From the IMG/VR virus record IMGVR_UViG_3300014890_000018, positions 1-27,387 of that record: a DNA stretch of 27,387 nt; one strand, given 5' to 3'. Of the stretch, positions 1 through 26,169 are shown in pieces. Origin of the DNA: a virus. Lineage: Duplodnaviria > Heunggongvirae > Uroviricota > Caudoviricetes. Both the position numbers and the translations under genes were made by a program. How positions within the stretch are numbered: position 1 is the first letter of the stretch; each line of letters begins with the position of its first letter. The notes beneath the pieces were generated by a model, which was not told where the DNA came from, did no database searches, and saw nothing but the letters and a program-made list of their open reading frames with translations.

Positions 1-516
1 ATGAAATTTAAAAAATGTCTTCTGCCTGTGGCAATGTTAGCGTCATTCACTCTGGCAGGATGCCAGTCAAATGCTGATGATCATGCCGCCGATGTTTATC
101 AAACCGATCAACTGAATACCAAACAAGAAACTAAAACCGTTAATATTATTTCCATTCTTCCCGCAAAAGTTGCCGTAGACAACTCCCAAAATAAACGAAA
201 CGCACAAGCCTTCGGCGCGCTTATTGGTGCAGTCGCTGGCGGTGTTATTGGCCACAACGTCGGGTCTGGCAGCAATTCCGGAACGACGGCAGGTGCAGTT
301 GGCGGCGGAGCTGTTGGCGCGGCAGCGGGTTCTATGGTGAATGATAAAACCTTAGTGGAAGGTGTTTCTCTAACGTATAAGGAAGGCACCAAAGTGTATA
401 CCTCCACCCAGGTGGGTAAAGAGTGCCAGTTTACGACAGGTTTAGCCGTTGTTATTACCACGACGTATAACGAAACGCGTATTCAGCCAAATACCAAATG
501 TCCTGAAAAGAGCTAA
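1..516 (+). CDS. Glycine-zipper (SlyB/Pcp/OsmB-like) outer-membrane lipoprotein
   Basis: N-terminal signal peptide with lipobox LAGC (MKFKKCLLPVAMLASFTLAGC); Gly/Ala-rich zipper GALIGAVAGGVIGHNVGSG...GAVGGGAVGAAAG typical of the glycine-zipper lipoprotein family; ATG at position 1. Confidence 0.6.
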   Translation: MKFKKCLLPVAMLASFTLAGCQSNADDHAADVYQTDQLNTKQETKTVNIISILPAKVAVDNSQNKRNAQAFGALIGAVAGGVIGHNVGSGSNSGTTAGAVGGGAVGAAAGSMVNDKTLVEGVSLTYKEGTKVYTSTQVGKECQFTTGLAVVITTTYNETRIQPNTKCPEKS

Positions 517-531
517 TGATCAGGAGGAGTC

Positions 532-1071
532 ATGAAGAAAGTTTTTCTTTGCGCCATCTTAGCCTCCTTAAGCTATCCGGCTATCGCCTCATCATTGCAG
601 GATCAACTCTCTGCTGTCGCAGAAGCGGAACAGCAAGGTAAAAATGAAGAGCAAAGGCAGCATGACGAATGGGTCGCGGAGCGCAACAGGGAAATCCAGC
701 AAGAGAAGCAACGTCGCGCAAACGCCCAGGCCGCCGCTAACAAAAGAGCGGCAACGGCAGCGGCAAATAAGAAAGCTCGTCAGGATAAACTGGACGCCGA
801 AGCCTCTGCGGACAAAAAACGCGATCAAAGTTATGAAGATGAGCTACGCAGCTTAGAGATTCAGAAACAAAAACTGGCGCTGGCGAAAGAAGAAGCCCGC
901 GTTAAGCGAGAAAACGAATTTATCGATCAGGAACTGAAGCACAAAGCTGCGCAAACCGATGTGGTGCAATCTGAAGCTGACGCAAACAGGAATATGACTG
1001 AGGGCGGTCGAGATCTGATGAAAAGCGTGGGCAAAGCAGAAGAGAACAAATCGGACAGCTGGTTTAACTAA
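532..1071 (+). CDS. Secreted/periplasmic charged coiled-coil protein, function unknown
   Basis: RBS caggaggag 5-13 nt upstream of ATG; cleavable signal peptide MKKVFLCAILASLSYPAIASS; K/E/A/Q/R-rich low-complexity helical body; 15 bp downstream of the lipoprotein gene, so probably one operon. Confidence 0.55.
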   Translation: MKKVFLCAILASLSYPAIASSLQDQLSAVAEAEQQGKNEEQRQHDEWVAERNREIQQEKQRRANAQAAANKRAATAAANKKARQDKLDAEASADKKRDQSYEDELRSLEIQKQKLALAKEEARVKRENEFIDQELKHKAAQTDVVQSEADANRNMTEGGRDLMKSVGKAEENKSDSWFN

Positions 1072-1110
1072 GCGATGTCAGTAACTTCAAGCCTATGATT
1101 CGTGAGTATA

Positions 1111-1142
1111 AAAAACCCTCTGTAGTAACAGAGGGTTTTGTT
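1111..1142. terminator. Bidirectional rho-independent terminator
   Basis: Stem aaccctctg / cagagggtt (9 bp) with loop tagtaa, A-tract before and T-tract (ttttgtt) after; lies between the convergent plus-strand gene ending at 1071 and the minus-strand spanin gene ending at 1266. Confidence 0.7.
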
Positions 1143-1265
1143 CATTCATAGTGCAGGGTCAAATCATTCCCACTCAATTATTTACGGCATGCATAACCAA
1201 TTGACTGGTAACAACTTTCTGTAACCTGATTTTCACCGTACCGTTTTATATACCGTCACCGGAAA

Positions 1266-1763
1266 TCAGTGCCACGATTTTTGCTTCTTCAGTGAATCGT
1301 ATTGCTGCTCGCAGAATTCCCCCGCGATACGATACTTTTCAGCCTCAGCTGCTGTTGCGTTGTAAACTCGGTTGCTTTCTTCAAGCATGTCGGCGAGCAC
1401 ACCGATGACCTTGCTGGCTGGCGTGCCAGGGGGGAAAGATCCGGTATAGTGTTCGGCGAGCCGCCTGGTTTTGTCAAGCTCGGCGCGCATGCTGTCAGCA
1501 GCGGAATTAGCATACTCAGCATCAGCACGCTCCGCATCGATACGGGATTGTGCTTCACGTTCAATTTGTGTTTTCTCCTGCTCACGCTGTGACCTTAACT
1601 TATCATCAGCCTGTTTCTGATCTTCCTTCGCCTGCGCATACCCGGCATCGTACTGACGGATGCCGTGCACATTCCAGGCAACAACTCCTGATATGACCAG
1701 AACAGCAAGCACCGCCATGATAATCAACTGTTTCCGGTATGCTTTTACGAATGCCCAGATCAT
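1266..1763 (-). CDS. Rz-like inner-membrane spanin (i-spanin)
   Basis: N-terminal transmembrane anchor ([18 protein letters not shown]) followed by a charged coiled-coil periplasmic domain; last gene of the lysis cassette; ATG overlaps the endolysin stop (ATGA). Confidence 0.7.
1289..1537 (-). CDS. Rz1-like outer-membrane lipoprotein spanin (o-spanin), embedded in the +1 frame of the Rz-like gene
   Basis: Alternate-frame ORF wholly inside the Rz-like gene; signal peptide [17 protein letters not shown] with lipobox LTAC; Pro-rich mature part. Start uncertain: ATG at 1537, or ATG at 1522 which has an upstream GGAG. Confidence 0.5.
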   Translation of the reverse strand: MRSVLMLSMLIPLLTACAPSLTKPGGSPNTIPDLSPLARQPARSSVCSPTCLKKATEFTTQQQLRLKSIVSRGNSASSNTIH

Positions 1764-2389
1764 ACCGCCAGCACCTTACTGGCATTGATGTATCGCGCGC
1801 GCCGGTCGTCGATGCCGTTCCGGCCACCATTGATAATCAGAGTTACACGTGCAATATCGCCGGTATACTTCATGCATCCTTTGCTGGCAAAGAACCACGC
1901 CGCGCTACGAGCCGCGTATTCGTCCTGCGCCAGCAGTTCAGGACTCTCCAGCAGGTCAACCTTAAGACCGTTTCCACAGTCACGATAGTTATTCAAACCG
2001 GTAACCTGGATAAGCCCGCGCCCACGGTAGTTCCAGCCATCACCAGGGGCATTGTTCCCCATGCGTTTGCTGTACACCAGATTGGCAATCGCTCTCTGGC
2101 GCTCAAGTGGCAATGGTGGTTCGCCTGCACGTCGCCCCAATGCGTTGGCCTGTCCCTGAGTGAGACGCCCAGCCCGAACAAAGTTAGCCAGTCCGCTGAC
2201 GCTGTAGTTGAAATTCTCCTGCAACCGGGTGAAGCCTCCAGACTCATGCCCGACCTGAGCAATAAACATAGCCTGATCTTCTGGTTTGCTGATACCAAAC
2301 TCTTTCATCGCAGAAGTTATATGCGAGAACCAGCGTGCGGCCAGTGCCTCGCTGATACCAGCAGCTCGCTGGAATTGTTTAATCTCCAT
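1760..2389 (-). CDS. Endolysin, glycoside hydrolase family 19 (chitinase-like lysozyme)
   Basis: GH19 hallmarks read directly from the translation: [12 protein letters not shown] (catalytic Glu region), [32 protein letters not shown] 7 nt upstream of ATG. No N-terminal TM segment, so soluble and holin-dependent. Confidence 0.9.
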
Positions 2390-2687
2390 GTTTAGACCTC
2401 GTTATTTTGAAAATCTGAACGACGTTACCGCGAGTTTTAAGAACCGCAGCAAGCATGACAGCGTTGATAATGACCTCAGATAAATCCACAGCCATTGGCG
2501 TGCGTAACCAGATTGCATAGACGATACGAACAGGAATACTGGCCGCAGCAACAATAAGGAAATAAGCAAGCCACCCTCCCCATCTTCGGTGTTGTGAACC
2601 GTTACGCCGGAATGTGACAACACGAATTGCTATGCCAGTACAAATAAGTGCATTGGTGATAAGCAAAAAATACTCATGCGTTACCAT
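2379..2687 (-). CDS. Holin-like / lysis-regulating membrane protein (102 aa)
   Basis: Small protein with 2-3 hydrophobic helices ([42 protein letters not shown]) and charged C-terminus; directly upstream of the endolysin with overlapping ends; RBS GGGGAG. Confidence 0.6.
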
Positions 2688-3078
2688 CGCCTTTTCTCCC
2701 CGGTATTAACTCGCGTGGATTATCGGAGCGGTGATAGAGCCAGATGCCAATTCGCACTGCGACGATTGCTGACACGAATGCGCCGGCAGAGAAAACAATC
2801 CCTTTCTCGAAGGAATCCTGTGTGATGGTAGGGATCAGGCTGGCTATGCCGATAAGAATTGATGCTGCTGGTTTGTAAAAAAGAAGGCCGCAAAGAAAGC
2901 TGAGCATCGACAGGACTACCCGGCGGCGGATCGGATATTCGACAGCAGAGGTAACAAAAATCACAGCTCCAGCAAGGGAGCCTAAAGCCACCTCAGGAGG
3001 TGCTCCTGCTATAACCGCCGCCAGAGAACTCATGCTAAGCCACTGATTTAAAGACTCATTGGTTATCTGAACTGACAT
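2674..3078 (-). CDS. Holin-like membrane protein (134 aa from ATG at 3078)
   Basis: Multiple predicted TM helices (LSMSSLAAVIAGAPP, LAGAVIFVTSAV, LSMLSFLCGLLFY, ASILIGIASLI, GAFVSAIVAVRIGIWLY); first gene of the lysis cassette. The track start at 3087 is a GTG; ATG at 3078 preferred. Confidence 0.6.
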   Translation of the reverse strand: MSVQITNESLNQWLSMSSLAAVIAGAPPEVALGSLAGAVIFVTSAVEYPIRRRVVLSMLSFLCGLLFYKPAASILIGIASLIPTITQDSFEKGIVFSAGAFVSAIVAVRIGIWLYHRSDNPRELIPGRKGDGNA

Positions 3079-3193
3079 AAAAACCACCGTTTAATGTGCA
3101 TGAAGAACCACCTTAGTATGGGGTTCACCATGCATATTAAACCATATATGAATAGTTATTACCTCTACATCAATTAAATCACTATCATATAAA

Positions 3194-5779
3194 TTACATC
3201 TGGTTATTAATTTTCATTTCAATATTTTTAATGCGCTCAACCAATCCTCGCATAATGAAACGATCAAGTTCTTGATCTCGGAATTGCCACAAATCTCCTG
3301 CTTTCTTAACTAATTTTTTTTCACCAGTACTCACAGGAATAATGAATTTTTCACCATTTTGATCCGTAATTAACTCATCTTTAATGACATCTTCATATAC
3401 ATCATCCCATTTGTCATACCCTATAAATCCATAATCTCGCCAGTCCAGGCCCTCATCCTCTAAAACAGCAATAACTGCCTGAACAGTGGTGCCAGAGTGC
3501 AACCTTTTAGAATCATCATCAATCCATGTCCAGAAACCTAGCAGATCAGCCACTTTAATTGCTGCATTAATTTCAGATTTGGTGAATCCGCGAATCGGGT
3601 CTTTAAGACGCCCATCTGAACTTGACTGGGTTCCTCCGGCAAAATAACCAATGTTATATCGTAGTGATGCGCTACCTATATTTGAAGTGGCATCAGTTCC
3701 AGGAGTTATTCCTCCTGACGTTGCTATTTGCATTGCTGGAGTAGATCCAGACCCACCATGTCTGAACTGTAATTGACCTACACTGTTGTATTGTGTTCTC
3801 ATGAACCAAGATGTAGCATTGCCATTACTGAGCAGGCCAAGAATAGCATCAGAACCAGATGGAGCCGATACAGTGTACATTCCTGTCTTAGTGAGTGACG
3901 TCATGGTTTCTCCATCCTTGCTGACCAATAGTCTGTCGGAGCTTGCATCCATCATCACTTTCCATCCTGTAGACCCATCAGCAGCATTCTTCGTAAACTG
4001 AATTGATGCGTCACCAATATTCCCATCAGAGCCAAGAATTGCAACGGTATAACCGCCTGCTGGGTCTTTACCCACAACTCCAAATCTACCGTTTAGCGGA
4101 TCGCCTGAAACTATTATTTTTACAGGAATCACTCCGGCAAAATTGTCATTAAATATCTGAGAAATATAATTCATGCGCATGCCATAAAAACTAACGCCTC
4201 TCTTTACATTCTCAGAACCAATAAAAGTCGGAATATCTGAATTTGTAATACCATAAGGTGATTGCTCTACCACACCACCATAAAACTGGATGTTGGATGC
4301 GTGATCAAATTCTAATGCATGATTAGCTCTGGTTCTAAACTCACAGCCATAAAAGTAATGCCCATTTATTTCAGCGGATGTCGCATTAACATCACCATCT
4401 ATATAAAGGCATCGCCATGTGTTTGCGCTAGAGTAATAAGAAACAAGCTCTTCATGAGACATTGATGCACGACTGTGGTGATCAAGGGTATAAATACCAC
4501 ATTTATCTACTCTAGTTCCGCTGAGACCATAACTTGCAGGCCCAGTGTTTGAACCAAGAATTGCTAAACCGACTCGCCCCATAGTTGACCCACCAGTAAT
4601 GGTATTGTAATCAGGGTCATCGTTTCCTTGCTTTGACTGAATTATTGTACCTGCTTTTGAAAAGTATCCGAATACACAAACATCCTCCTGAAGATTTCTT
4701 GCAGAGTCATCGTAATAAACCCCACACTCATAATCTGCACGTTGGTCTTCATCAGGTTTTGTGTGATTACCGATGGAATCATAACAAATCATGTCTTGAA
4801 CCACGGCAATGCCTTTAAGGACAGATCCACTTGAACCATATTCTGGAGAAAGAACTCTCACGCAATATCGAACACTTGCGAAATGATCGTCTCTGTTATC
4901 TGTAGTAGCTATCTTTGTTCCTGCTCCAGAAAATATAAACGTAGCACCAGGCATATTTTCTTTTCTACCTTCAGCAAGAAAGAATTTGTCATCATCAGTA
5001 CCAAATCCAAGAACAGGAGAACCATTACCAATGAATCGAAAATCACCAGGTATTTCTATACCATCAGAGAATCGATAAACCCCATCAGGAACAAAAAAAG
5101 TTTTCTTTCCAGATGCAAGCAAAGCCTGCCACTGCGTTAAGTTGTCCGTTTTATAGTCACCTTTTAATCCAAAATCGGTTATGCTGACTGTATCTCGCAT
5201 CTTATCCTGGAACGTTCGATATATCGCACCAGAACCATACTGAATAAACCAACCAAAACCACCAACAACTCCGGCGATTGCAGCATCAACATAATTACGC
5301 ATTGAGCGATTATTTACAGCATCCTGCTCAAGTGATGGATCTGCAAGGTTAGAAATTCTGTTTTGCTTTGCATCGTAATATTTTGCAAGCAAAGATGGTT
5401 TCATCAATGCACGTCTGAACCACCCAAAACATTGCTGGATCAGCATCGTCAGGTAGTCAAAAGCATCTTCATGCACTTCGGGGAAAAATTTTCCCTGATT
5501 GCGAAGGTCTGTCTCCTGCACTACATCAAGCACACGATCTATCGTAATTCGCCATCCAGCAGCAAGCGGCGACGGAAGAACAACAGAACCGCCACTATAA
5601 GTGCCCGCCCCAGTTACCGTATAACCGGTATCCAGAACCAATTCTGTTACGTTCCCGTTCAGGTCAGACACCTGAACAACCAGGTCGGATTTTTTGAAAA
5701 TACGGAAGGTATACGGAAATGATGTCGTAGCGCCGTTACCGGTGTATTCGTTGTGGTCAACTTCGGTTGAGACCGTCAT
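3194..5779 (-). CDS. Tailspike / tail fibre: conserved N-terminal anchor, low-GC central domain (probable glycan depolymerase), C-terminal intramolecular chaperone (peptidase S74-like)
   Basis: 861 aa. N-terminus (MTVSTEVDHNEYTGNGATTSFPYTF...) matches the conserved N-terminal domain of podovirus tail fibres/spikes. C-terminal ~135 aa follow a SSDGRLKD motif, the S-D-x-R-x-K autocleavage signature of S74 chaperone domains. RBS GGAG 7 nt upstream. Strong AT-shift over roughly 3.2-5.5 kb versus the 5' end. Confidence 0.85.
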   Translation of the reverse strand: MTVSTEVDHNEYTGNGATTSFPYTFRIFKKSDLVVQVSDLNGNVTELVLDTGYTVTGAGTYSGGSVVLPSPLAAGWRITIDRVLDVVQETDLRNQGKFFPEVHEDAFDYLTMLIQQCFGWFRRALMKPSLLAKYYDAKQNRISNLADPSLEQDAVNNRSMRNYVDAAIAGVVGGFGWFIQYGSGAIYRTFQDKMRDTVSITDFGLKGDYKTDNLTQWQALLASGKKTFFVPDGVYRFSDGIEIPGDFRFIGNGSPVLGFGTDDDKFFLAEGRKENMPGATFIFSGAGTKIATTDNRDDHFASVRYCVRVLSPEYGSSGSVLKGIAVVQDMICYDSIGNHTKPDEDQRADYECGVYYDDSARNLQEDVCVFGYFSKAGTIIQSKQGNDDPDYNTITGGSTMGRVGLAILGSNTGPASYGLSGTRVDKCGIYTLDHHSRASMSHEELVSYYSSANTWRCLYIDGDVNATSAEINGHYFYGCEFRTRANHALEFDHASNIQFYGGVVEQSPYGITNSDIPTFIGSENVKRGVSFYGMRMNYISQIFNDNFAGVIPVKIIVSGDPLNGRFGVVGKDPAGGYTVAILGSDGNIGDASIQFTKNAADGSTGWKVMMDASSDRLLVSKDGETMTSLTKTGMYTVSAPSGSDAILGLLSNGNATSWFMRTQYNSVGQLQFRHGGSGSTPAMQIATSGGITPGTDATSNIGSASLRYNIGYFAGGTQSSSDGRLKDPIRGFTKSEINAAIKVADLLGFWTWIDDDSKRLHSGTTVQAVIAVLEDEGLDWRDYGFIGYDKWDDVYEDVIKDELITDQNGEKFIIPVSTGEKKLVKKAGDLWQFRDQELDRFIMRGLVERIKNIEMKINNQM

Positions 5780-5832
5780 GTTAAATCTCCAGATAGTCGC
5801 AGCACCCGTTGCGCCGCATATCTGGTTATTCT

Positions 5833-5896
5833 ATTACCTGAAAAACCACATATGGATAGATAACCCATAAATACGAAAAGATATTACCTTTCAGGT
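5833..5896. promoter_or_regulatory. Divergent regulatory region A (between the tailspike and the SOS-regulated ORF) carrying the same two motifs as region B
   Basis: AACCACATATG at 5844-5854 and ATTACCTTTCAGGT at 5883-5896, same order and orientation as in region B (spacing 28 vs 40 bp). Confidence 0.5.
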
Positions 5897-5935
5897 GATT
5901 TGCAAAACGTGCTGGATAGCAAACAAATTATTTGA

Positions 5936-5955
5936 TACTGTATATTTATACAGTT
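5936..5955 (+). promoter_or_regulatory. LexA (SOS) box, 18/20 match to consensus
   Basis: TACTGTATATTTATACAGTT versus consensus TACTGTATATATATACAGTA; CTGT-N8-ACAG core intact; lies 20 bp upstream of the ATG at 5975, in the divergent region between the tailspike and the small plus-strand ORF. Confidence 0.75.
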
Positions 5956-5974
5956 ATTGCATGGAGAAGATAAG

Positions 5975-6232
5975 ATGCAGCAGTATCACTATCCACTGGA
6001 AGACGGATTTACCGAAAGGATTCACACGCCGGGAGGCGTCAGGTCACTGGTGGAGGGATCGCACTTGATGAAATTACTCCGGGATCTCGATAAGGATGGA
6101 TTTAATGTCGATGGCCCACTTGCCGAACTGACTGCACTGATTAACTACGTCACCAGCTCACAGATGTCTATGCAGGATCTGCAAACACATCTCGACTATT
6201 GTGCCGAACAATTACGAAAGCAAACCACATAA
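5975..6232 (+). CDS. SOS-regulated small protein (85 aa), function unknown; candidate antirepressor or SOS-induced accessory protein
   Basis: ATG at 5975 with GGAG 8 nt upstream (the track start at 5957 is a TTG); LexA box just upstream; opposite orientation to all flanking structural genes. No motif I recognise. Confidence 0.55.
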   Translation: MQQYHYPLEDGFTERIHTPGGVRSLVEGSHLMKLLRDLDKDGFNVDGPLAELTALINYVTSSQMSMQDLQTHLDYCAEQLRKQTT

Positions 6233-6254
6233 AGAAAAGGCCGCGAAAGCGGCC
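6231..6254 (-). terminator. Rho-independent terminator for the minus-strand secreted-protein gene; hairpin also abuts the stop codon of the plus-strand small ORF
   Basis: Perfect stem ggccgc / gcggcc with GNRA-type loop gaaa at 6239-6254; on the minus strand it is followed by TTTTCTTT (6238-6231). On the plus strand no U-tract follows. Confidence 0.65.
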
Positions 6255-6255
6255 T

Positions 6256-6267
6256 GTGACATGTCAC
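6256..6267. repeat. 12-bp perfect palindrome GTGACATGTCAC, copy 1 of 3
   Basis: Exact string; identical copies at 23979-23990 and 26244-26255; each sits beside an intrinsic-terminator hairpin at a junction between gene modules. Confidence 0.8.
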
Positions 6268-6268
6268 G

Positions 6269-6829
6269 CTACATTGATATATGATTCATAAAGTAGCTTA
6301 GAGATTTACTTCCCAGAAAAGAAATTTCTTTTCCTGGATATGTCGCAATAATTGAGCATGACTTATCCCCGTTAGAGGTAACAAATCCTGAATAACCTAC
6401 TTGTTCTTTACCATTTTGTTGCTTGGCTAAAAAGTAGAGGTAGCTTATCTTTTTGCCCTCTGGGTAAAACTCTGCCAAACCAGTATCGGTGATTGAATAT
6501 TTTATTCTCCCGCCTTGAGTAACGTTTTCCATCTCAAGTTTAGCTATGTCTTTTCTGTTGTATTCAGCATTGATTTTCCTTTCGAAATCAATGTTGTTTT
6601 CAAATGAGTAGGAAGCAACAGTCTGAATAGATGGGAACACGTTTATCTGGATGCCTCCACAGTCGGCACAGGTATAAAGGTATGAATCAGATGGAATCCC
6701 CATAAAAGAAAACTGAGTTACCTTAAATTTATCGCTATCTCCAAAGTATTGAAGTTCGCATTTAACATTTTGCCCTGCAAAAGAAAATGCAGACATTAAT
6801 ATTGAAACAAAAAATATAATTGCCTTCAT
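6269..6829 (-). CDS. AT-rich moron encoding a secreted (signal-peptide) protein of unknown function, 186 aa
   Basis: Signal peptide MKAIIFFVSILMSAFSFAG, no lipobox; four Cys in the mature part; markedly AT-rich versus the upstream virion genes; starts 2 nt after the stop of the 850-aa gene; followed by terminator and palindrome. Confidence 0.65.
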   Translation of the reverse strand: MKAIIFFVSILMSAFSFAGQNVKCELQYFGDSDKFKVTQFSFMGIPSDSYLYTCADCGGIQINVFPSIQTVASYSFENNIDFERKINAEYNRKDIAKLEMENVTQGGRIKYSITDTGLAEFYPEGKKISYLYFLAKQQNGKEQVGYSGFVTSNGDKSCSIIATYPGKEISFLGSKSLSYFMNHISM

Positions 6830-22922: not shown

Positions 22923-22998
22923 TTACCAATTTAACCACATATGATTTATTTATCGTAGATAGTTGACATTTAACGCACAAATTATTACCTTTCAGGTA
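22923..22998. promoter_or_regulatory. Divergent regulatory region B (between the portal unit and the tRNA cassette) carrying the shared motifs AACCACATATG and ATTACCTTTCAGGT
   Basis: AACCACATATG at 22934-22944; ATTACCTTTCAGGT at 22985-22998 containing the inverted repeat TACCT-TTC-AGGTA; TTGACA at 22964-22969 on the plus strand; minus strand reads TTGTGC-N17-TACGAT (promoter-like). Confidence 0.5.
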
Positions 22999-23049
22999 AG
23001 CAAAGAGTTCATTCCGGTTATTAACCTGACTGGCTTGTCGTTAAATTGA

Positions 23050-23321: not shown

Positions 23322-23398
23322 GTGGCATTAGCTCAGCTGGACAGAGCAACCGCCTTCTAAGCGGTTGGTCGCAGGTTCGAATCCTGCATGCCACGCCA
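23322..23398 (+). tRNA. tRNA-Arg (anticodon UCU, reads AGA), phage-encoded
   Basis: 77-nt cloverleaf read by hand: acceptor GTGGCAT/ATGCCAC, D-stem GCTC/GAGC, anticodon stem ACCGC/GCGGT with loop CTTCTAA (anticodon TCT), T-stem GCAGG/CCTGC with loop TTCGAAT, discriminator G, encoded CCA. Resembles the enterobacterial argU tRNA but differs in the stems. Confidence 0.9.
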
Positions 23399-23561: not shown

Positions 23562-23584
23562 GCCCGGTTCGCCGGGCATTTTTT
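23562..23584 (+). terminator. Strong rho-independent terminator (UUCG tetraloop) immediately upstream of the 125-aa ORF
   Basis: Stem gcccgg / ccgggc, loop ttcg, then aTTTTTT; only 12 nt before the ATG at 23597. Confidence 0.65.
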
Positions 23585-23596
23585 AAAGGTGAGATT

Positions 23597-23974
23597 ATGA
23601 ACGACCAGCAAATCGAAAAAGAAATCGTTGAGAAAGGCAAAACGGCACCGCGAATCACCCCGCAGCACATCGAAGACGTGATTATTAGTGAGCACTATTT
23701 CACGGCTGCAGAAGGGGTTCATGGCGCTAATGAGCTTTTAAAACCGCATGAAAGCCCAATTGACTATTACCAGGAAGCGCACCCTGCTGAGTCACTTCTG
23801 ACCTTCTGCGTTCTGGTGCTGCGCAACGGATTTACTGTAACCGGAGAAAGCGCCTGTGCAAGCCCGGAAAACTTTGATGCAGAAATTGGTCGGAAGATTG
23901 CCCGGCAGAATGCTGTAAACAAAATCTGGATGCTTGAAGGTTACTTGCTGAAGCAGAAGTTAAGCGAGCAATAA
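23597..23974 (+). CDS. Hypothetical protein (125 aa) in the tRNA cassette, function unknown
   Basis: ATG at 23597 with RBS AAAGGTGAG 4-12 nt upstream (the track ORF starts earlier at 23549); plus strand, antisense to the structural operon; followed by palindrome and terminator. Confidence 0.6.
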   Translation: MNDQQIEKEIVEKGKTAPRITPQHIEDVIISEHYFTAAEGVHGANELLKPHESPIDYYQEAHPAESLLTFCVLVLRNGFTVTGESACASPENFDAEIGRKIARQNAVNKIWMLEGYLLKQKLSEQ

Positions 23975-23978
23975 CACC

Positions 23979-23990
23979 GTGACATGTCAC
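23979..23990. repeat. 12-bp perfect palindrome GTGACATGTCAC, copy 2 of 3
   Basis: Exact string 5 nt after the stop of the 125-aa ORF and 4 nt before a terminator hairpin; between the convergent 125-aa ORF and TerL. Confidence 0.8.
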
Positions 23991-23994
23991 AAAC

Positions 23995-24021
23995 AGCCAG
24001 CCTATGAGCTGGCTTTGTTTT
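23995..24021 (+). terminator. Rho-independent terminator ending the plus-strand tRNA/ORF cassette
   Basis: Stem agccagc / gctggct with loop ctatga, followed by ttgtttt. Confidence 0.55.
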
Positions 24022-24064
24022 ATCCTCATCAGAGGATATCAACGACATTATCCCCACCAGCGGA

Positions 24065-25540
24065 TTAAGCATAAGGGTCATAATCCGTTATGGCCCTTCC
24101 CTGCTGGCTTTGCTGTCCTGGTATATTTATGCGTTTCGAGACCGGGAAAGCAAACGTCAGCAGTAGCGCATCGCCTTTACCCGGAGAACGCCCAAGCCGC
24201 TCCTTGATATCTTCCTTCGGTTCGATAACGACTTTACCGTCCACTCGAACTTTGTACTCTGCCGCCGACAGGTCGTCTGCAGTTTCCTGGTCATCCAGCA
24301 TGCCGCCGAGCCTCAGCCATGTCTTGCATGAGTTGAACATCTCCCCACGCTTGTTAAGCATCTGCGGGTCAGTGGACGCACCGCCGAACGGAACAAGTTG
24401 CCATGTACGTCCCCAGCCATCACCGATTGACTTCAAACCGGTTCCGTAACCGAAGTCGATGAACACTGCGTCAGCCTGGTACTGGTCTTCAAAGTCAGCG
24501 ATACGCTTCGCCATAATCAGATCGTCAGTGGTCTTGTTGCCAGTCCATAGCACCTTACTGTGCAGCCCCTGCCGCAGGTATATCACAGCGTCATCAACGC
24601 CGGAGTATGCCGGGTCAACGCCGATTATCACCGGAGCATGTGCAACCTGCGCAGCGGTTACCACCCGTTTCATTGCCTCGTCAGTAAGGCCGGTAGGGAT
24701 AAACTGTAATTCAGATGCATCAGGGAATATGCCGCGCACACGGATTTTAACGAAGTCGCTGTCTTCCCCGTAGTCATCAACCCATTTCTGCAACTGCTGT
24801 TTGTTAGTGCCTTCCACCGTCCGGCTGTCAATCTGCGCAGTTTTCCAGCGGTGTTTATATTTGCGGAAACATTCGCGGAAACGCCCGGTGTTACGTGTAG
24901 GGTTTCCGAACGCCACCCAGATAATCTCAGTGTCTTCGTCCGTAAGCGCACCCTCAGCAACTTCCCACACCAGATCCGCAATGTTCGACGCTTCATCGAA
25001 TACCACGATGATGCGTTTGCGCTCGTTGTGTAGTCCGGCGAATGCCTCAGTGTTGTGCTCAGACCAGGGTATTGCGTCAGCTCGCCACCGCTTGTCGTGC
25101 CCAGGGTCATTGCTGTACATCGCGGTAGCGGTACAGGTAAACCAGTCTTTCGTGATAGCAAGGTTCGACCACTTGATAATTTCCGGCCAGGTCTTCGTTC
25201 GTAGCTGGTTGTCGGTGTTGGCGGTCACCACGACCTTACAATCCTCGCAAGTGGACATGCCCCAGTTGATCAGCATTGAGATGAATGCGGATTTACCAAT
25301 ACCGTGACCAGAAGCACGTGCCAGCATAAGCGGCTGATATCGCGTCTCTGGATTCTGCAGGTGATCACGTATCTCTCGGAACGCATCGGCCTGCCACTGA
25401 CGTGGACCGGTGGCATGTGCCAGTTCAGTACCCTCTTCCCCCCACGGGAACGCATAGAGGGCATAGCCAAGCGGATCGTGAGTGAACCCTGCAATATCCT
25501 CGATTAACTGCTCTTCAGGAGATAACGCTGTATCTGTCAC
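24065..25540 (-). CDS. Terminase large subunit (491 aa)
   Basis: Walker A-type motif ARASGHGIGKSAF near the N-terminus, acidic nuclease-type C-terminal half, ATGA-type overlap with the TerS stop. Confidence 0.9.
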   Translation of the reverse strand: MTDTALSPEEQLIEDIAGFTHDPLGYALYAFPWGEEGTELAHATGPRQWQADAFREIRDHLQNPETRYQPLMLARASGHGIGKSAFISMLINWGMSTCEDCKVVVTANTDNQLRTKTWPEIIKWSNLAITKDWFTCTATAMYSNDPGHDKRWRADAIPWSEHNTEAFAGLHNERKRIIVVFDEASNIADLVWEVAEGALTDEDTEIIWVAFGNPTRNTGRFRECFRKYKHRWKTAQIDSRTVEGTNKQQLQKWVDDYGEDSDFVKIRVRGIFPDASELQFIPTGLTDEAMKRVVTAAQVAHAPVIIGVDPAYSGVDDAVIYLRQGLHSKVLWTGNKTTDDLIMAKRIADFEDQYQADAVFIDFGYGTGLKSIGDGWGRTWQLVPFGGASTDPQMLNKRGEMFNSCKTWLRLGGMLDDQETADDLSAAEYKVRVDGKVVIEPKEDIKERLGRSPGKGDALLLTFAFPVSKRINIPGQQSQQGRAITDYDPYA

Positions 25541-26133
25541 TGATTGCCATCCTGACGTTCTTTCAGTCTCTTCCTGGCTGCCGCTATGCGATCAGCAATT
25601 GTCACATTCACATTAACATCCAGGCGTTCTTTGAATGCGTTGACGTCGACGTGCTTACCAATCAGTTCGAGGTTCTTCACCTTGTCAGGCCATTTAATTT
25701 TTTTGAGGATTGTCTCTATCGAATCCTCGTTCATGTTCATGATGGTCGATGACAGATCAAAGCCACTAAGCGTAGTGCGCCAGATTTTCGGCCACTCGCG
25801 GATTGGCTTAAGGCTCCCATCGTCGTTGAGGATGTCGATCACGTCCATCTGGTCGATCTCCACCAGGCGCATGAGAACGTAATCAGCACTGACGCGCATT
25901 CGTTTGTTGCGCTCCTCCATCAACTCGGCAATCCGTTTTTGAATGCGTTCATCGCGCATCATGACACTGGCTTTAACTGCCGCTGTATTTGGGGAGAATC
26001 CTGCGTTAATCGCTGCCTGAGTCTGGTTTTCAGGCGTTTTGATGTATGACTGGCAATAAGCCTCCTGCATTGCTGTTAGTGGCTTAAATTGCGTTGATTT
26101 GCGTTTATAGGTTTTAGGTTCAGCAGGCATCAT
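25537..26133 (-). CDS. Terminase small subunit (about 198 aa from ATG at 26133)
   Basis: N-terminal helix-turn-helix segment AMQEAYCQSYIKTPENQTQAAINAGFSPNTAAVKASVMM is typical of small-terminase DNA-binding domains; directly upstream of and overlapping TerL. The track start at 26211 is a TTG inside the upstream terminator/repeat region; ATG at 26133 (or 26130) preferred. Confidence 0.8.
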   Translation of the reverse strand: MMPAEPKTYKRKSTQFKPLTAMQEAYCQSYIKTPENQTQAAINAGFSPNTAAVKASVMMRDERIQKRIAELMEERNKRMRVSADYVLMRLVEIDQMDVIDILNDDGSLKPIREWPKIWRTTLSGFDLSSTIMNMNEDSIETILKKIKWPDKVKNLELIGKHVDVNAFKERLDVNVNVTIADRIAAARKRLKERQDGNQ

Positions 26134-26140
26134 AACCACC

Positions 26141-26169
26141 GTGGTAATAGTTACCGTTGTGGTAATAGT
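26141..26169. repeat. Two direct repeats of GTGGTAATAGT, 18 bp apart, just upstream of the TerS start
   Basis: Exact 11-mers at 26141-26151 and 26159-26169, between a minus-strand terminator and the TerS ATG. Confidence 0.7.

What the first reader, a model, noticed from the sequence alone, without database searches (positions are those of the whole stretch)
5936..6232. Near-consensus LexA box driving a small plus-strand ORF inside the late structural region
TACTGTATATTTATACAGTT (5936-5955) matches the LexA consensus at 18/20 with the CTGT-N8-ACAG core intact. It sits 20 bp upstream of an 85-aa ORF (ATG 5975, GGAG RBS) that is transcribed opposite to every neighbouring virion gene. SOS-controlled prophage genes are typically antirepressors or damage-induced accessory proteins, and this protein has no motif I recognise. 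The late region is an unusual place for an SOS-controlled gene.
Basis: partly seen in the sequence, partly recalled or inferred. Interest (0 to 1): 0.62.

Follow-up and report, generated by a model that had tools for sequence, protein, structure and literature searches.

The report
SOS-controlled prophage antirepressor gene (Ant)

Summary
A near-consensus LexA box (5936-5955, 2 mismatches to the 20-mer; none in 100 shuffles) lies 19 nt upstream of an 85-aa plus-strand ORF (5975-6232, GGAG RBS) whose neighbours all run on the minus strand. The window is the left part of an epsilon15/phiV10-like (Uetakevirus) prophage integrated next to yfgI in E. coli. The ORF is the orthologue of Ant from Salmonella phage SPC32H: 88% identical to PDB 5D50 chain E "Anti-repressor protein" (E=1.3e-47), same genome position and orientation, and dN/dS of 0.047. 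The LexA box is conserved in the Escherichia, Salmonella and Enterobacter relatives. In this stretch SPC32H and its variant SPC32N differ by one base, inside the box. Both plausible ant promoters put their -10 hexamer within the box. The cognate repressor Rep lies outside the window. A 99-100% identical prophage encodes one (43% identical to SPC32H Rep, HTH only, no self-cleavage domain). Most likely mechanism: DNA damage leads to LexA cleavage, Ant is made, Ant binds Rep and breaks up its tetramer, and the prophage is induced. The position among late genes is normal for this genus. Already known; low interest. The gene remains "hypothetical" in RefSeq, which is an annotation gap.

The parts
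5936..5955 (.). LexA operator (SOS box) TACTGTATATTTATACAGTT
   Evidence: It has 2 mismatches to the 20-mer consensus, with none found in 100 shuffles. PWM score is 27.8 bits against 10.9 for the next-best site. It is conserved in 8 of 11 related phages. The single SPC32H/SPC32N difference in this stretch falls in the column of window C5951. It is the only strong box in the whole related prophage.
5913..5941 (+). Candidate ant promoter: -35 TGGATA (5913-5918), 17-nt spacer, extended -10 TGaTACTGT (5933-5941). The alternative is TAGCAA-18-TATATT (5917-5946). In both, the -10 lies inside the LexA box.
   Evidence: Relaxed hexamer scan. The TGGA.A, TG and TA.TGT positions are invariant in all 11 aligned phages. 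This is an inference; no transcription start site has been mapped here, and the strict consensus scan found no plus-strand promoter upstream of ant.
5963..5966 (+). Ribosome-binding site GGAG, 8 nt before the ATG
   Evidence: Read directly from the sequence. GGAG is invariant in all 11 phages.
5975..6232 (+). ant: 85-aa antirepressor, orthologue of SPC32H Ant
   Evidence: PDB 5D50_E, E=1.3e-47, 88% identity over the full length. phrog_450, E=1.4e-47. Annotated 'ant' in SPC32H and SPC32N. dN/dS is 0.047 against SPC32H at 80% nucleotide identity. RefSeq CDS WP_001188253.1 has the same coordinates in a near-identical prophage.
6238..6255 (-). GC-rich hairpin. On the minus strand it is followed by a T-run, making it the intrinsic terminator of the virion-protein operon. 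On the plus strand the same hairpin closes the ant transcript but has no U-tract.
   Evidence: Terminator scan. Folding gives -17.9 kcal/mol on the plus strand (z = -4.0) and -16.5 kcal/mol on the minus strand (z = -3.0). The equivalent stem-loop is annotated as a rho-independent terminator in epsilon15.
5883..5899 (.). Phage repressor (Rep) operator palindrome ATTACCTTTCAGGTGAT, between the ant and tailspike promoters. It probably serves the tailspike promoter.
   Evidence: The homologous site is annotated 'protein_bind: repressor, lysogeny' in the epsilon15 RefSeq record. The motif ATTACC-N5-GGTAAT is found 18 times against 0.93 expected in SPC32H, 11 against 0.03 in the E. coli prophage, and 6 against 0.55 in the window, and it clusters around rep.
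5828..5856 (-). Candidate tailspike promoter: -35 TCCATA, 17-nt spacer, -10 TAGAAT, abutting a GGTAAT operator half-site
   Evidence: Relaxed scan. Both hexamers lie in blocks that are conserved or invariant across the 11 phages. Inference only.

Best explanation
The locus is the SOS sensor of an epsilon15/phiV10-like (Uetakevirus) prophage. It is a stand-alone transcription unit encoding Ant, a small antirepressor, with a host LexA operator over its promoter. In a healthy lysogen LexA sits on the -10 region and keeps ant silent, while the phage repressor Rep (encoded about 4 kb beyond the right end of the window) holds the lytic promoters off through ATTACC-N5-GGTAAT operators. After DNA damage, RecA-stimulated LexA self-cleavage frees the promoter and Ant is made. 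Ant binds the C-terminal tetramerisation domain of Rep and breaks the DNA-binding Rep tetramer into dimers that bind DNA poorly, and the prophage enters lytic growth. Rep has no self-cleavage domain, so Ant is the route by which the SOS signal reaches it. Shown here: the identity of the protein, the quality, uniqueness and conservation of the LexA box, synteny, purifying selection, and the presence of a matching Rep in a near-identical prophage. Inferred from the SPC32H work: LexA binding, Ant-Rep binding and induction.
For: The protein is 88% identical over its full length to the Anti-repressor chain of PDB 5D50. It matches the annotated ant of SPC32H and SPC32N and has the same position and orientation in 10 related phages. 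The LexA box is far above chance. It is the only strong box in the window and in the complete related prophage. It is conserved with an intact CTGT-N8-ACAG core in the Escherichia, Salmonella and Enterobacter relatives. SPC32H and SPC32N differ in this intergenic stretch by one base, ACAG to AAAG, inside the box. As I recall the Kim & Ryu 2013 abstract, this is the mutation that makes Ant constitutive and SPC32N lytic. Both plausible promoters have their -10 inside the box. dN/dS is 0.047. A prophage 99-100% colinear with the window encodes a full-length Rep homologue (E=1e-53 to SPC32H Rep; E=3.5e-42 to 5D50_A) that has HTH domains only and no Peptidase_S24 domain. Its DNA-binding N-terminus (54% identical) and C-terminal region (49%) are the best-conserved parts, and its operators share the SPC32H half-sites. 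Literature: Ant is made after LexA self-cleavage and inhibits the repressor (citing Kim & Ryu 2013). [quoted passage not shown] 2016). The Rep C-terminal domain mediates both tetramerisation and Ant binding. The E. coli member vB_EcoP_ZX5 is inducible with mitomycin C.
Against: Nothing here was tested experimentally for this E. coli copy. Rep is not in the window, so the pairing rests on a near-identical prophage in another strain. That Rep is only 43% identical to SPC32H Rep while Ant is 88% identical, so binding is assumed rather than shown. The promoter hexamers are weak, and the strict consensus scan found no plus-strand promoter upstream of ant. The two primary SPC32H papers could not be read here, so their content is cited through secondary papers or from memory.
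Confidence: 0.9

Rival explanations
1. Ant is present and SOS-controlled but no longer matches the resident repressor. It would then be an orphan that acts only in trans on other Uetakevirus prophages, or does nothing, and this prophage would be induced some other way, for example through the large AntA/Bro-N antirepressor found in relatives.
For: Rep in the closest full-length relative is only 43% identical to SPC32H Rep, against 88% for Ant. Relatives carry a second, larger antirepressor whose over-expression promotes lytic growth in ZX5.
Against: Strong purifying selection on ant (dN/dS 0.047), with the box and gene conserved across four host genera. The Rep C-terminal region, which includes the Ant-binding domain, is among the better-conserved parts at 49%. 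The window lacks the large antirepressor cassette altogether, which leaves Ant as the only candidate link to SOS. Rep has no self-cleavage domain.
Confidence: 0.06
2. The LexA box mainly regulates the divergent tailspike and lysis genes on the minus strand, placing late genes under SOS control, and the small ORF is incidental.
For: The box lies in the shared intergenic region between ant and the tailspike gene.
Against: The box is 157 bp from the tailspike ATG and about 80 bp from the best-conserved minus-strand promoter candidate (5828-5856), but it overlaps the -10 of both plus-strand candidates and lies 19 nt from the ant ATG. The tailspike side has its own Rep operator, spaced as at other late operons. 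As recalled from Kim & Ryu 2013, the SPC32N box mutation acts through Ant.
Confidence: 0.02
3. The protein is some other SOS accessory factor, such as a DinI-like RecA modulator, a toxin or a cell-division inhibitor, and not an antirepressor.
For: It is a small SOS-controlled prophage ORF with no Pfam or NCBIfam family.
Against: 88% identity to a protein crystallised in complex with its repressor. There is no DinI or other accessory-family hit. The only named remote PHROG match is to the C-terminal domain of an anti-repressor family, and the protein also aligns to the C-terminal domain of an AntA-type antirepressor.
Confidence: 0.02

Closest known systems
Ant / Rep / LexA lytic switch of Salmonella podophage SPC32H (Kim & Ryu 2013 J Virol 87:11775; Kim et al. 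2016 PNAS 113:E2480; PDB 5D50, 5D4Z)
   Same: Same phage genus (Uetakevirus). Ant is 88% identical and almost the same length (85 vs 86 aa). The gene lies in the same place, between the virion-operon terminator and the tailspike gene, on the opposite strand. A LexA box sits at the same distance from the same GGAG-ATG. A Rep operator palindrome lies at the same upstream position. A Rep homologue without a self-cleavage domain is present in the near-identical prophage.
   Different: The host is E. coli rather than Salmonella. The box is closer to consensus (TACTGTATATTTATACAGTT vs TACTGTATGTTTATACAGTG; 27.8 vs 25.5 bits). The partner Rep has diverged to 43% identity. Nothing has been tested experimentally for this copy.
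epsilon15 gp19, phiV10 gp24, TL-2011b gp47 and vB_EcoP_ZX5 'hypothetical proteins'
   Same: These are direct orthologues, 84.5-100% identical, with the same context. TL-2011b gp47 is identical in sequence.
   Different: They are annotated as hypothetical. The ZX5 study examined only the large Bro-N antirepressor and did not mention LexA or this gene.
LexA-controlled small antirepressors of other temperate phages: Tum of coliphage 186; GfoA/GftA of the Gifsy prophages (Lemire et al. 2011, PMC3121763)
   Same: The logic is the same: a non-cleavable repressor is inactivated by a small protein whose gene is repressed by LexA.
   Different: No sequence relationship was detected in the Pfam or PHROG scans. 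The genome location differs, since the Gifsy genes sit beside dinI downstream of the replication genes. As recalled from its abstract, the SPC32H paper describes Ant as structurally distinct from these.
Large AntA / Bro-N type phage antirepressors (Pfam PF08346 AntA; phrog_1760)
   Same: The whole small Ant aligns to their C-terminal ~80 residues: 44% identity, E=1e-16, to the 218-aa AntA protein of the JNE25-003 prophage, and phrog_1760 positions 177-225 of 232.
   Different: The small Ant lacks the N-terminal AntA/Bro-N domain. The large genes are preceded by Rep operators and have no LexA box. The window does not contain one.

Membership tests
SPC32H-type Ant (LexA-controlled small antirepressor of Uetakevirus) | Full-length sequence homology to SPC32H Ant | tested here: met
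   phmmer against PDB: 5D50_E, E=1.3e-47, residues 2-85 aligned to 3-86, 88% identity. tblastn to SPC32H and SPC32N ant. phrog_450, E=1.4e-47.
SPC32H-type Ant (LexA-controlled small antirepressor of Uetakevirus) | LexA-binding site overlapping the ant promoter | tested here: met
   Met at the sequence level: 2 mismatches to consensus and 27.8 bits, aligned column for column with the SPC32H box, and both candidate -10 hexamers fall inside the box. Physical LexA binding cannot be tested here.
SPC32H-type Ant (LexA-controlled small antirepressor of Uetakevirus) | Conserved genome position: a lone gene on the opposite strand between the end of the virion-protein operon and the tailspike gene | tested here: met
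   Same arrangement in SPC32H, SPC32N, epsilon15, phiV10, TL-2011b, Tyrion, BUCT554 and the Klebsiella phages.
SPC32H-type Ant (LexA-controlled small antirepressor of Uetakevirus) | Cognate SPC32H-type Rep repressor without a RecA-dependent self-cleavage domain | tested here: inconclusive
   Rep is not encoded in the window. In the 99-100% colinear prophage of E. coli JNE25-003 a 194-aa Rep homologue is present (43% identity; E=1e-53 to SPC32H Rep; E=3.5e-42 to 5D50_A) with HTH domains only and no Peptidase_S24. Met for the closest relative, unverifiable for the window's own genome.
SPC32H-type Ant (LexA-controlled small antirepressor of Uetakevirus) | Ant binds Rep and dissociates the Rep tetramer; SOS-dependent induction requires ant | not testable with these tools
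   Known for SPC32H only through secondary sources. The E. coli relative ZX5 is inducible with mitomycin C, but ant dependence has not been tested.
AntA / Bro-N large antirepressors | N-terminal AntA (PF08346) or Bro-N domain | tested here: not met
   The 85-aa protein has no Pfam domain hit above threshold. It corresponds only to the C-terminal domain of such proteins.
DinI-like SOS accessory proteins | Match to the DinI family profile | tested here: not met
   No DinI hit in Pfam at E<=0.01 or in NCBIfam at E<=0.1.
Tum (phage 186) / Gifsy GfoA-GftA antirepressors | Sequence homology to Tum or GftA | not tested
   No direct pairwise comparison was run. Nothing of that name appeared in the Pfam or PHROG scans. 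The resemblance is functional, in that the regulatory logic is shared.

The most novel reading that the evidence does not exclude
The ant control region may hold more than a LexA switch. A Rep operator lies 36 bp upstream of the LexA box, centred about 57 bp before the predicted ant transcription start. If Rep bound there also modulates P_ant, ant would be under dual LexA and Rep control, giving a feedback loop that sharpens or commits induction. Separately, an 88%-conserved Ant facing Reps that have diverged to 43% identity suggests that Ant could cross-induce Uetakevirus prophages across host genera.
Probability: 0.15. Interest if true: 0.35.

Novelty: already known. Interest (0 to 1): 0.12.

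Why it matters
Its scientific importance is small. It confirms that E. coli epsilon15/phiV10-like prophages carry the same LexA-Ant-Rep induction switch that was worked out genetically and structurally in Salmonella phage SPC32H. These prophages are common: the surrounding 1.5 kb matched 545 of 5,426 complete E. coli genomes. The practical value lies in annotation. The gene is still labelled "hypothetical protein" in RefSeq (WP_001188253.1) and in most phage records, because no Pfam or NCBIfam model covers it. A 2022 study of the E. coli member ZX5 analysed its lysis-lysogeny control without noticing this gene. Recognising it predicts that SOS-inducing antibiotics such as quinolones or mitomycin C induce these prophages through Ant. 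It also predicts that a single base change in the box, as in SPC32N, would turn a temperate phage of this group effectively lytic, which is relevant to anyone engineering these phages.

Tried and rejected
- **Primary papers not available:** Kim & Ryu 2013 (PMC3807360), Kim et al. 2016 (PMC4983836) and Kropinski et al. 2007 (PMC2698709) are not held. I used secondary citations and marked anything recalled from abstracts as memory.
- **Strict promoter scan:** the consensus sigma-70 scan found no plus-strand promoter upstream of ant. A relaxed scan combined with conservation gave two candidates, both overlapping the box.
- **Source genome:** no complete E. coli genome in the collection has the window's exact junction of ant with the 186-aa gene. 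The closest relative, JNE25-003, has a 3.3-kb cassette inserted there.
- **Rep in the window:** tblastn with both Rep versions found nothing.
- **ZX5 'anti-repressor':** the experimentally studied ZX5 protein is not this gene. It is the large Bro-N protein.
- **Known RNA family:** considered and rejected. Rfam found only the tRNA-Arg at 23322.
- **Longer ORF from TTG 5957 (91 aa):** rejected. The ATG at 5975 has the conserved GGAG, matches the SPC32H Ant N-terminus and is the RefSeq start.
- **Rep operator as part of ant control:** considered, but its distance from the tailspike ATG (about 105 bp) matches the operator spacing at other late operons, so it more likely belongs to the tailspike promoter.
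- **Not run:** large-database protein searches and structure prediction, because the PDB match already settled the identity.

Full report
**1. Observation**

TACTGTATATTTATACAGTT occupies 5936-5955, GGAG lies at 5963-5966, the ATG is at 5975 and the stop codon at 6230-6232, giving 85 codons. The 20-mer has two mismatches to the E. coli LexA consensus TACTGTATATATATACAGTA. It is the only site in the 27.4-kb window with three or fewer mismatches, and no such site appeared in 100 dinucleotide-preserving shuffles.

I built a position weight matrix from E. coli SOS boxes. The list was recalled from memory, so the matrix is approximate. On it the site scores 27.8 bits, higher than any box in the training set. 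The next-best site in the window scores 10.9, and the best in 200 shuffles scored 18.7. All flanking genes run on the minus strand.

**2. What the window is**

Positions 1-1071 are the host genes yfgH and yfgI. The phage att core ATTGAGTGGGAATGATT lies at 1162-1178 (the core sequence comes from the ZX5 paper). Everything to the right of it is a prophage of the epsilon15/phiV10 group (genus Uetakevirus). In order it carries:

- spanin, endolysin and holins (1266-3087)
- tailspike (3194-5779)
- the small plus-strand ORF
- a 186-aa ORF
- the virion, portal and terminase genes

The window is 99-100% colinear with a prophage in E. coli JNE25-003, apart from a 3.3-kb cassette that the window lacks.

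**3. Identity of the ORF**

- The 85-aa protein matches one solved structure: chain E of PDB 5D50, named "Anti-repressor protein", with E=1.3e-47 and 88% identity end to end.
- tblastn finds the gene annotated ant (SPC32H_020) in Salmonella phages SPC32H and SPC32N. It also finds orthologues at 60-100% identity in 35 phage records from Escherichia, Salmonella, Enterobacter and Klebsiella.
- In every relative examined, the gene sits alone on the opposite strand between the end of the virion-protein operon and the tailspike gene. The placement in the "late region" is therefore the norm for this genus and not an oddity.
- Against SPC32H ant, nucleotide identity is 80% but dN/dS is 0.047, so this is a translated gene under selection.
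- No Pfam or NCBIfam model covers it. That explains why RefSeq calls it "hypothetical protein" (WP_001188253.1).
- PHROGs places it in phrog_450 (function unknown). It also aligns to the C-terminal part of an anti-repressor family, phrog_1760.
- Consistent with that, the whole protein aligns to the C-terminal ~80 residues of a 218-aa AntA-domain antirepressor in the JNE25-003 prophage (44% identity, E=1e-16).

**4. The control region**

I aligned the tailspike-ant intergenic region of 11 phages.

- The LexA box keeps an intact CTGT-N8-ACAG core in all Escherichia, Salmonella and Enterobacter members. The three Klebsiella phages have ATGT in the left half-site, which lowers the score to 18.8 bits.
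- SPC32H and SPC32N differ in this stretch by one base, ACAG to AAAG, in the right half of the box. The equivalent window position is C5951. As I recall the Kim & Ryu 2013 abstract, this is the LexA-site mutation that makes Ant constitutive and SPC32N lytic. I could not open the paper itself.
- The strict promoter scan found nothing upstream of ant.
- A relaxed scan gave two candidates: TGGATA-17-TGaTACTGT, an extended -10, and TAGCAA-18-TATATT. The hexamer and TG positions of the first are invariant in all 11 phages. In both candidates the -10 lies inside the LexA box, which is the arrangement expected of an operator that blocks RNA polymerase.
- The box is the only strong LexA site in the complete related prophage, at 27.4 bits against 11.0 for the next site. 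That makes ant the prophage's only predicted SOS-controlled gene.

**5. The partner repressor**

Rep is not in the window. By colinearity it should lie about 4 kb beyond the right end. The JNE25-003 prophage encodes a 194-aa homologue there:

- It is 43% identical to SPC32H Rep (E=1e-53) and matches PDB 5D50 chain A and 5D4Z.
- Both Reps have helix-turn-helix domains and no Peptidase_S24 self-cleavage domain.
- The N-terminal 70 residues (54% identical) and the C-terminal 43 residues (49%) are the best-conserved parts.
- According to a structural paper citing Kim et al. 2016, the C-terminal domain mediates both Rep tetramerisation and Ant binding.

The palindrome ATTACC-N5-GGTAAT is annotated as the repressor site in the epsilon15 RefSeq record. 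It is strongly over-represented and clusters around rep in both SPC32H (18 found, 0.93 expected) and the E. coli prophage (11 found, 0.03 expected). DNA recognition therefore appears to be conserved despite the divergence in Rep sequence.

**6. Mechanism**

What was shown for SPC32H, as reported by others:

- After SOS induction and LexA self-cleavage, Ant is made and inhibits the repressor by protein-protein interaction.
- This traps Rep in a non-functional state.

The same mechanism is inferred for this locus, from 88% protein identity, a better-than-SPC32H LexA box in the same register, the same synteny, and a matching non-cleavable Rep in the near-identical prophage. The E. coli member ZX5 is inducible with mitomycin C, reaching 10^9 PFU. 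I put about 0.9 on this explanation.

The rivals each get a few percent:

- Ant is an orphan that no longer matches the resident Rep.
- The LexA box really controls the tailspike gene.
- The protein is an unrelated SOS accessory factor.

**7. Other anatomy**

- Six bases after the ant stop codon lies a GC-rich hairpin (6238-6255). On the minus strand it is followed by a T-run, so it is the intrinsic terminator of the virion operon. The equivalent feature is annotated in epsilon15.
- The tailspike gene therefore needs its own promoter. A conserved candidate, TCCATA-17-TAGAAT on the minus strand at 5856-5828, abuts an operator half-site.
- A full Rep operator lies at 5883-5899. Its distance from the tailspike ATG, about 105 bp, matches the operator spacing at other late operons in SPC32H. 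I therefore assign it to the tailspike promoter and not to ant. An effect on P_ant is not excluded, and this is the basis of the "novel case".

**8. Comparison and novelty**

This is the SPC32H Ant/Rep/LexA switch in an E. coli member of the same genus. It shares its regulatory logic, but no detected sequence similarity, with Tum of phage 186 and GfoA/GftA of the Gifsy prophages. It corresponds to the C-terminal domain of the large AntA/Bro-N antirepressors but lacks their N-terminal domain.

The exact protein already exists in published phage genomes; TL-2011b gp47 is 100% identical. What remains is an annotation gap. The 2022 ZX5 study of lysis-lysogeny control in an E. coli Uetakevirus examined only the large Bro-N antirepressor and mentioned neither LexA nor this gene.

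**Verdict:** Interest is low.

Noticed in passing
window 5883-5899, 22984-23000, 26132-26148, 26150-26166: These are copies of the Rep operator palindrome ATTACC-N5-GGTAAT (6 in the window at 2 or fewer mismatches, 0.55 expected). They sit in front of the tailspike gene, the portal operon and the small terminase gene. In SPC32H the same motif precedes nearly every transcription unit and clusters around rep, which suggests that Rep represses many late promoters directly and not just one early switch.
   Followed up: partly
window 6230-6254; L011 6230-6254 and 9553-9577: The 25-bp terminator segment just after ant is duplicated in the E. coli JNE25-003 prophage. There it flanks a 3.3-kb cassette holding two YafO-family toxin genes and a 218-aa AntA-type antirepressor with an Ant-like C-terminal domain, the latter preceded by Rep operators. 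The window lacks the cassette, as if it had been gained or lost by recombination between the two terminator copies. No complete E. coli genome in the collection has the window's cassette-free junction.
   Followed up: partly
window 6269-6829 (minus strand): This 186-aa ORF has low GC content (36-39%, against 53-58% in the adjacent virion genes) and a signal-peptide-like N-terminus (MKAIIFFVSILMSAFSFAG). It belongs to phrog_11983 (function unknown) and has no Pfam or NCBIfam hit. It looks like a moron (an accessory gene added to the phage genome) at the end of the virion operon.
   Followed up: partly
window 6256-6267: A perfect 12-bp palindrome, GTGACATGTCAC, abuts the terminator hairpin. It is present unchanged at the same place in SPC32H even though the adjacent gene is only about 80% identical. 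Its function is unknown.
   Followed up: no
window 1-1266: The host genes yfgH and yfgI occupy 1-1071, and the phage att core ATTGAGTGGGAATGATT lies at 1162-1178, so the window contains the left prophage-host junction. The integrase and guaA lie at the far end in the related genome.
   Followed up: yes
window 3087-3194: The lysis cassette follows the tailspike gene directly. The O-antigen acetyltransferase or serotype-conversion genes found at this position in phiV10, TL-2011b, SPC32H and epsilon15 are absent from this prophage.
   Followed up: no
window 23322-23398 (plus strand): A tRNA-Arg gene (anticodon TCT) lies on the strand opposite to the virion genes. The window and the JNE25-003 prophage are not colinear in the adjacent stretch (window 23584-24066).
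   Followed up: no
L007, L008 and L009 around positions 1455-1480 (Klebsiella Uetakevirus phages): The Klebsiella relatives keep ant but have ATGT instead of CTGT in the left LexA half-site (PWM 18.8 bits against 27.8). This may mean weaker LexA control or adaptation to a slightly different site preference.
   Followed up: no
L011 35027-35611 compared with L003 33739-34335: Ant is 88% identical between the E. coli and Salmonella phages, but the Reps are only 43% identical, with the N-terminal DNA-binding region (54%) and the C-terminal region (49%) best conserved. The operator half-sites are unchanged. This raises the possibility of cross-induction between prophages of different hosts.
   Followed up: partly
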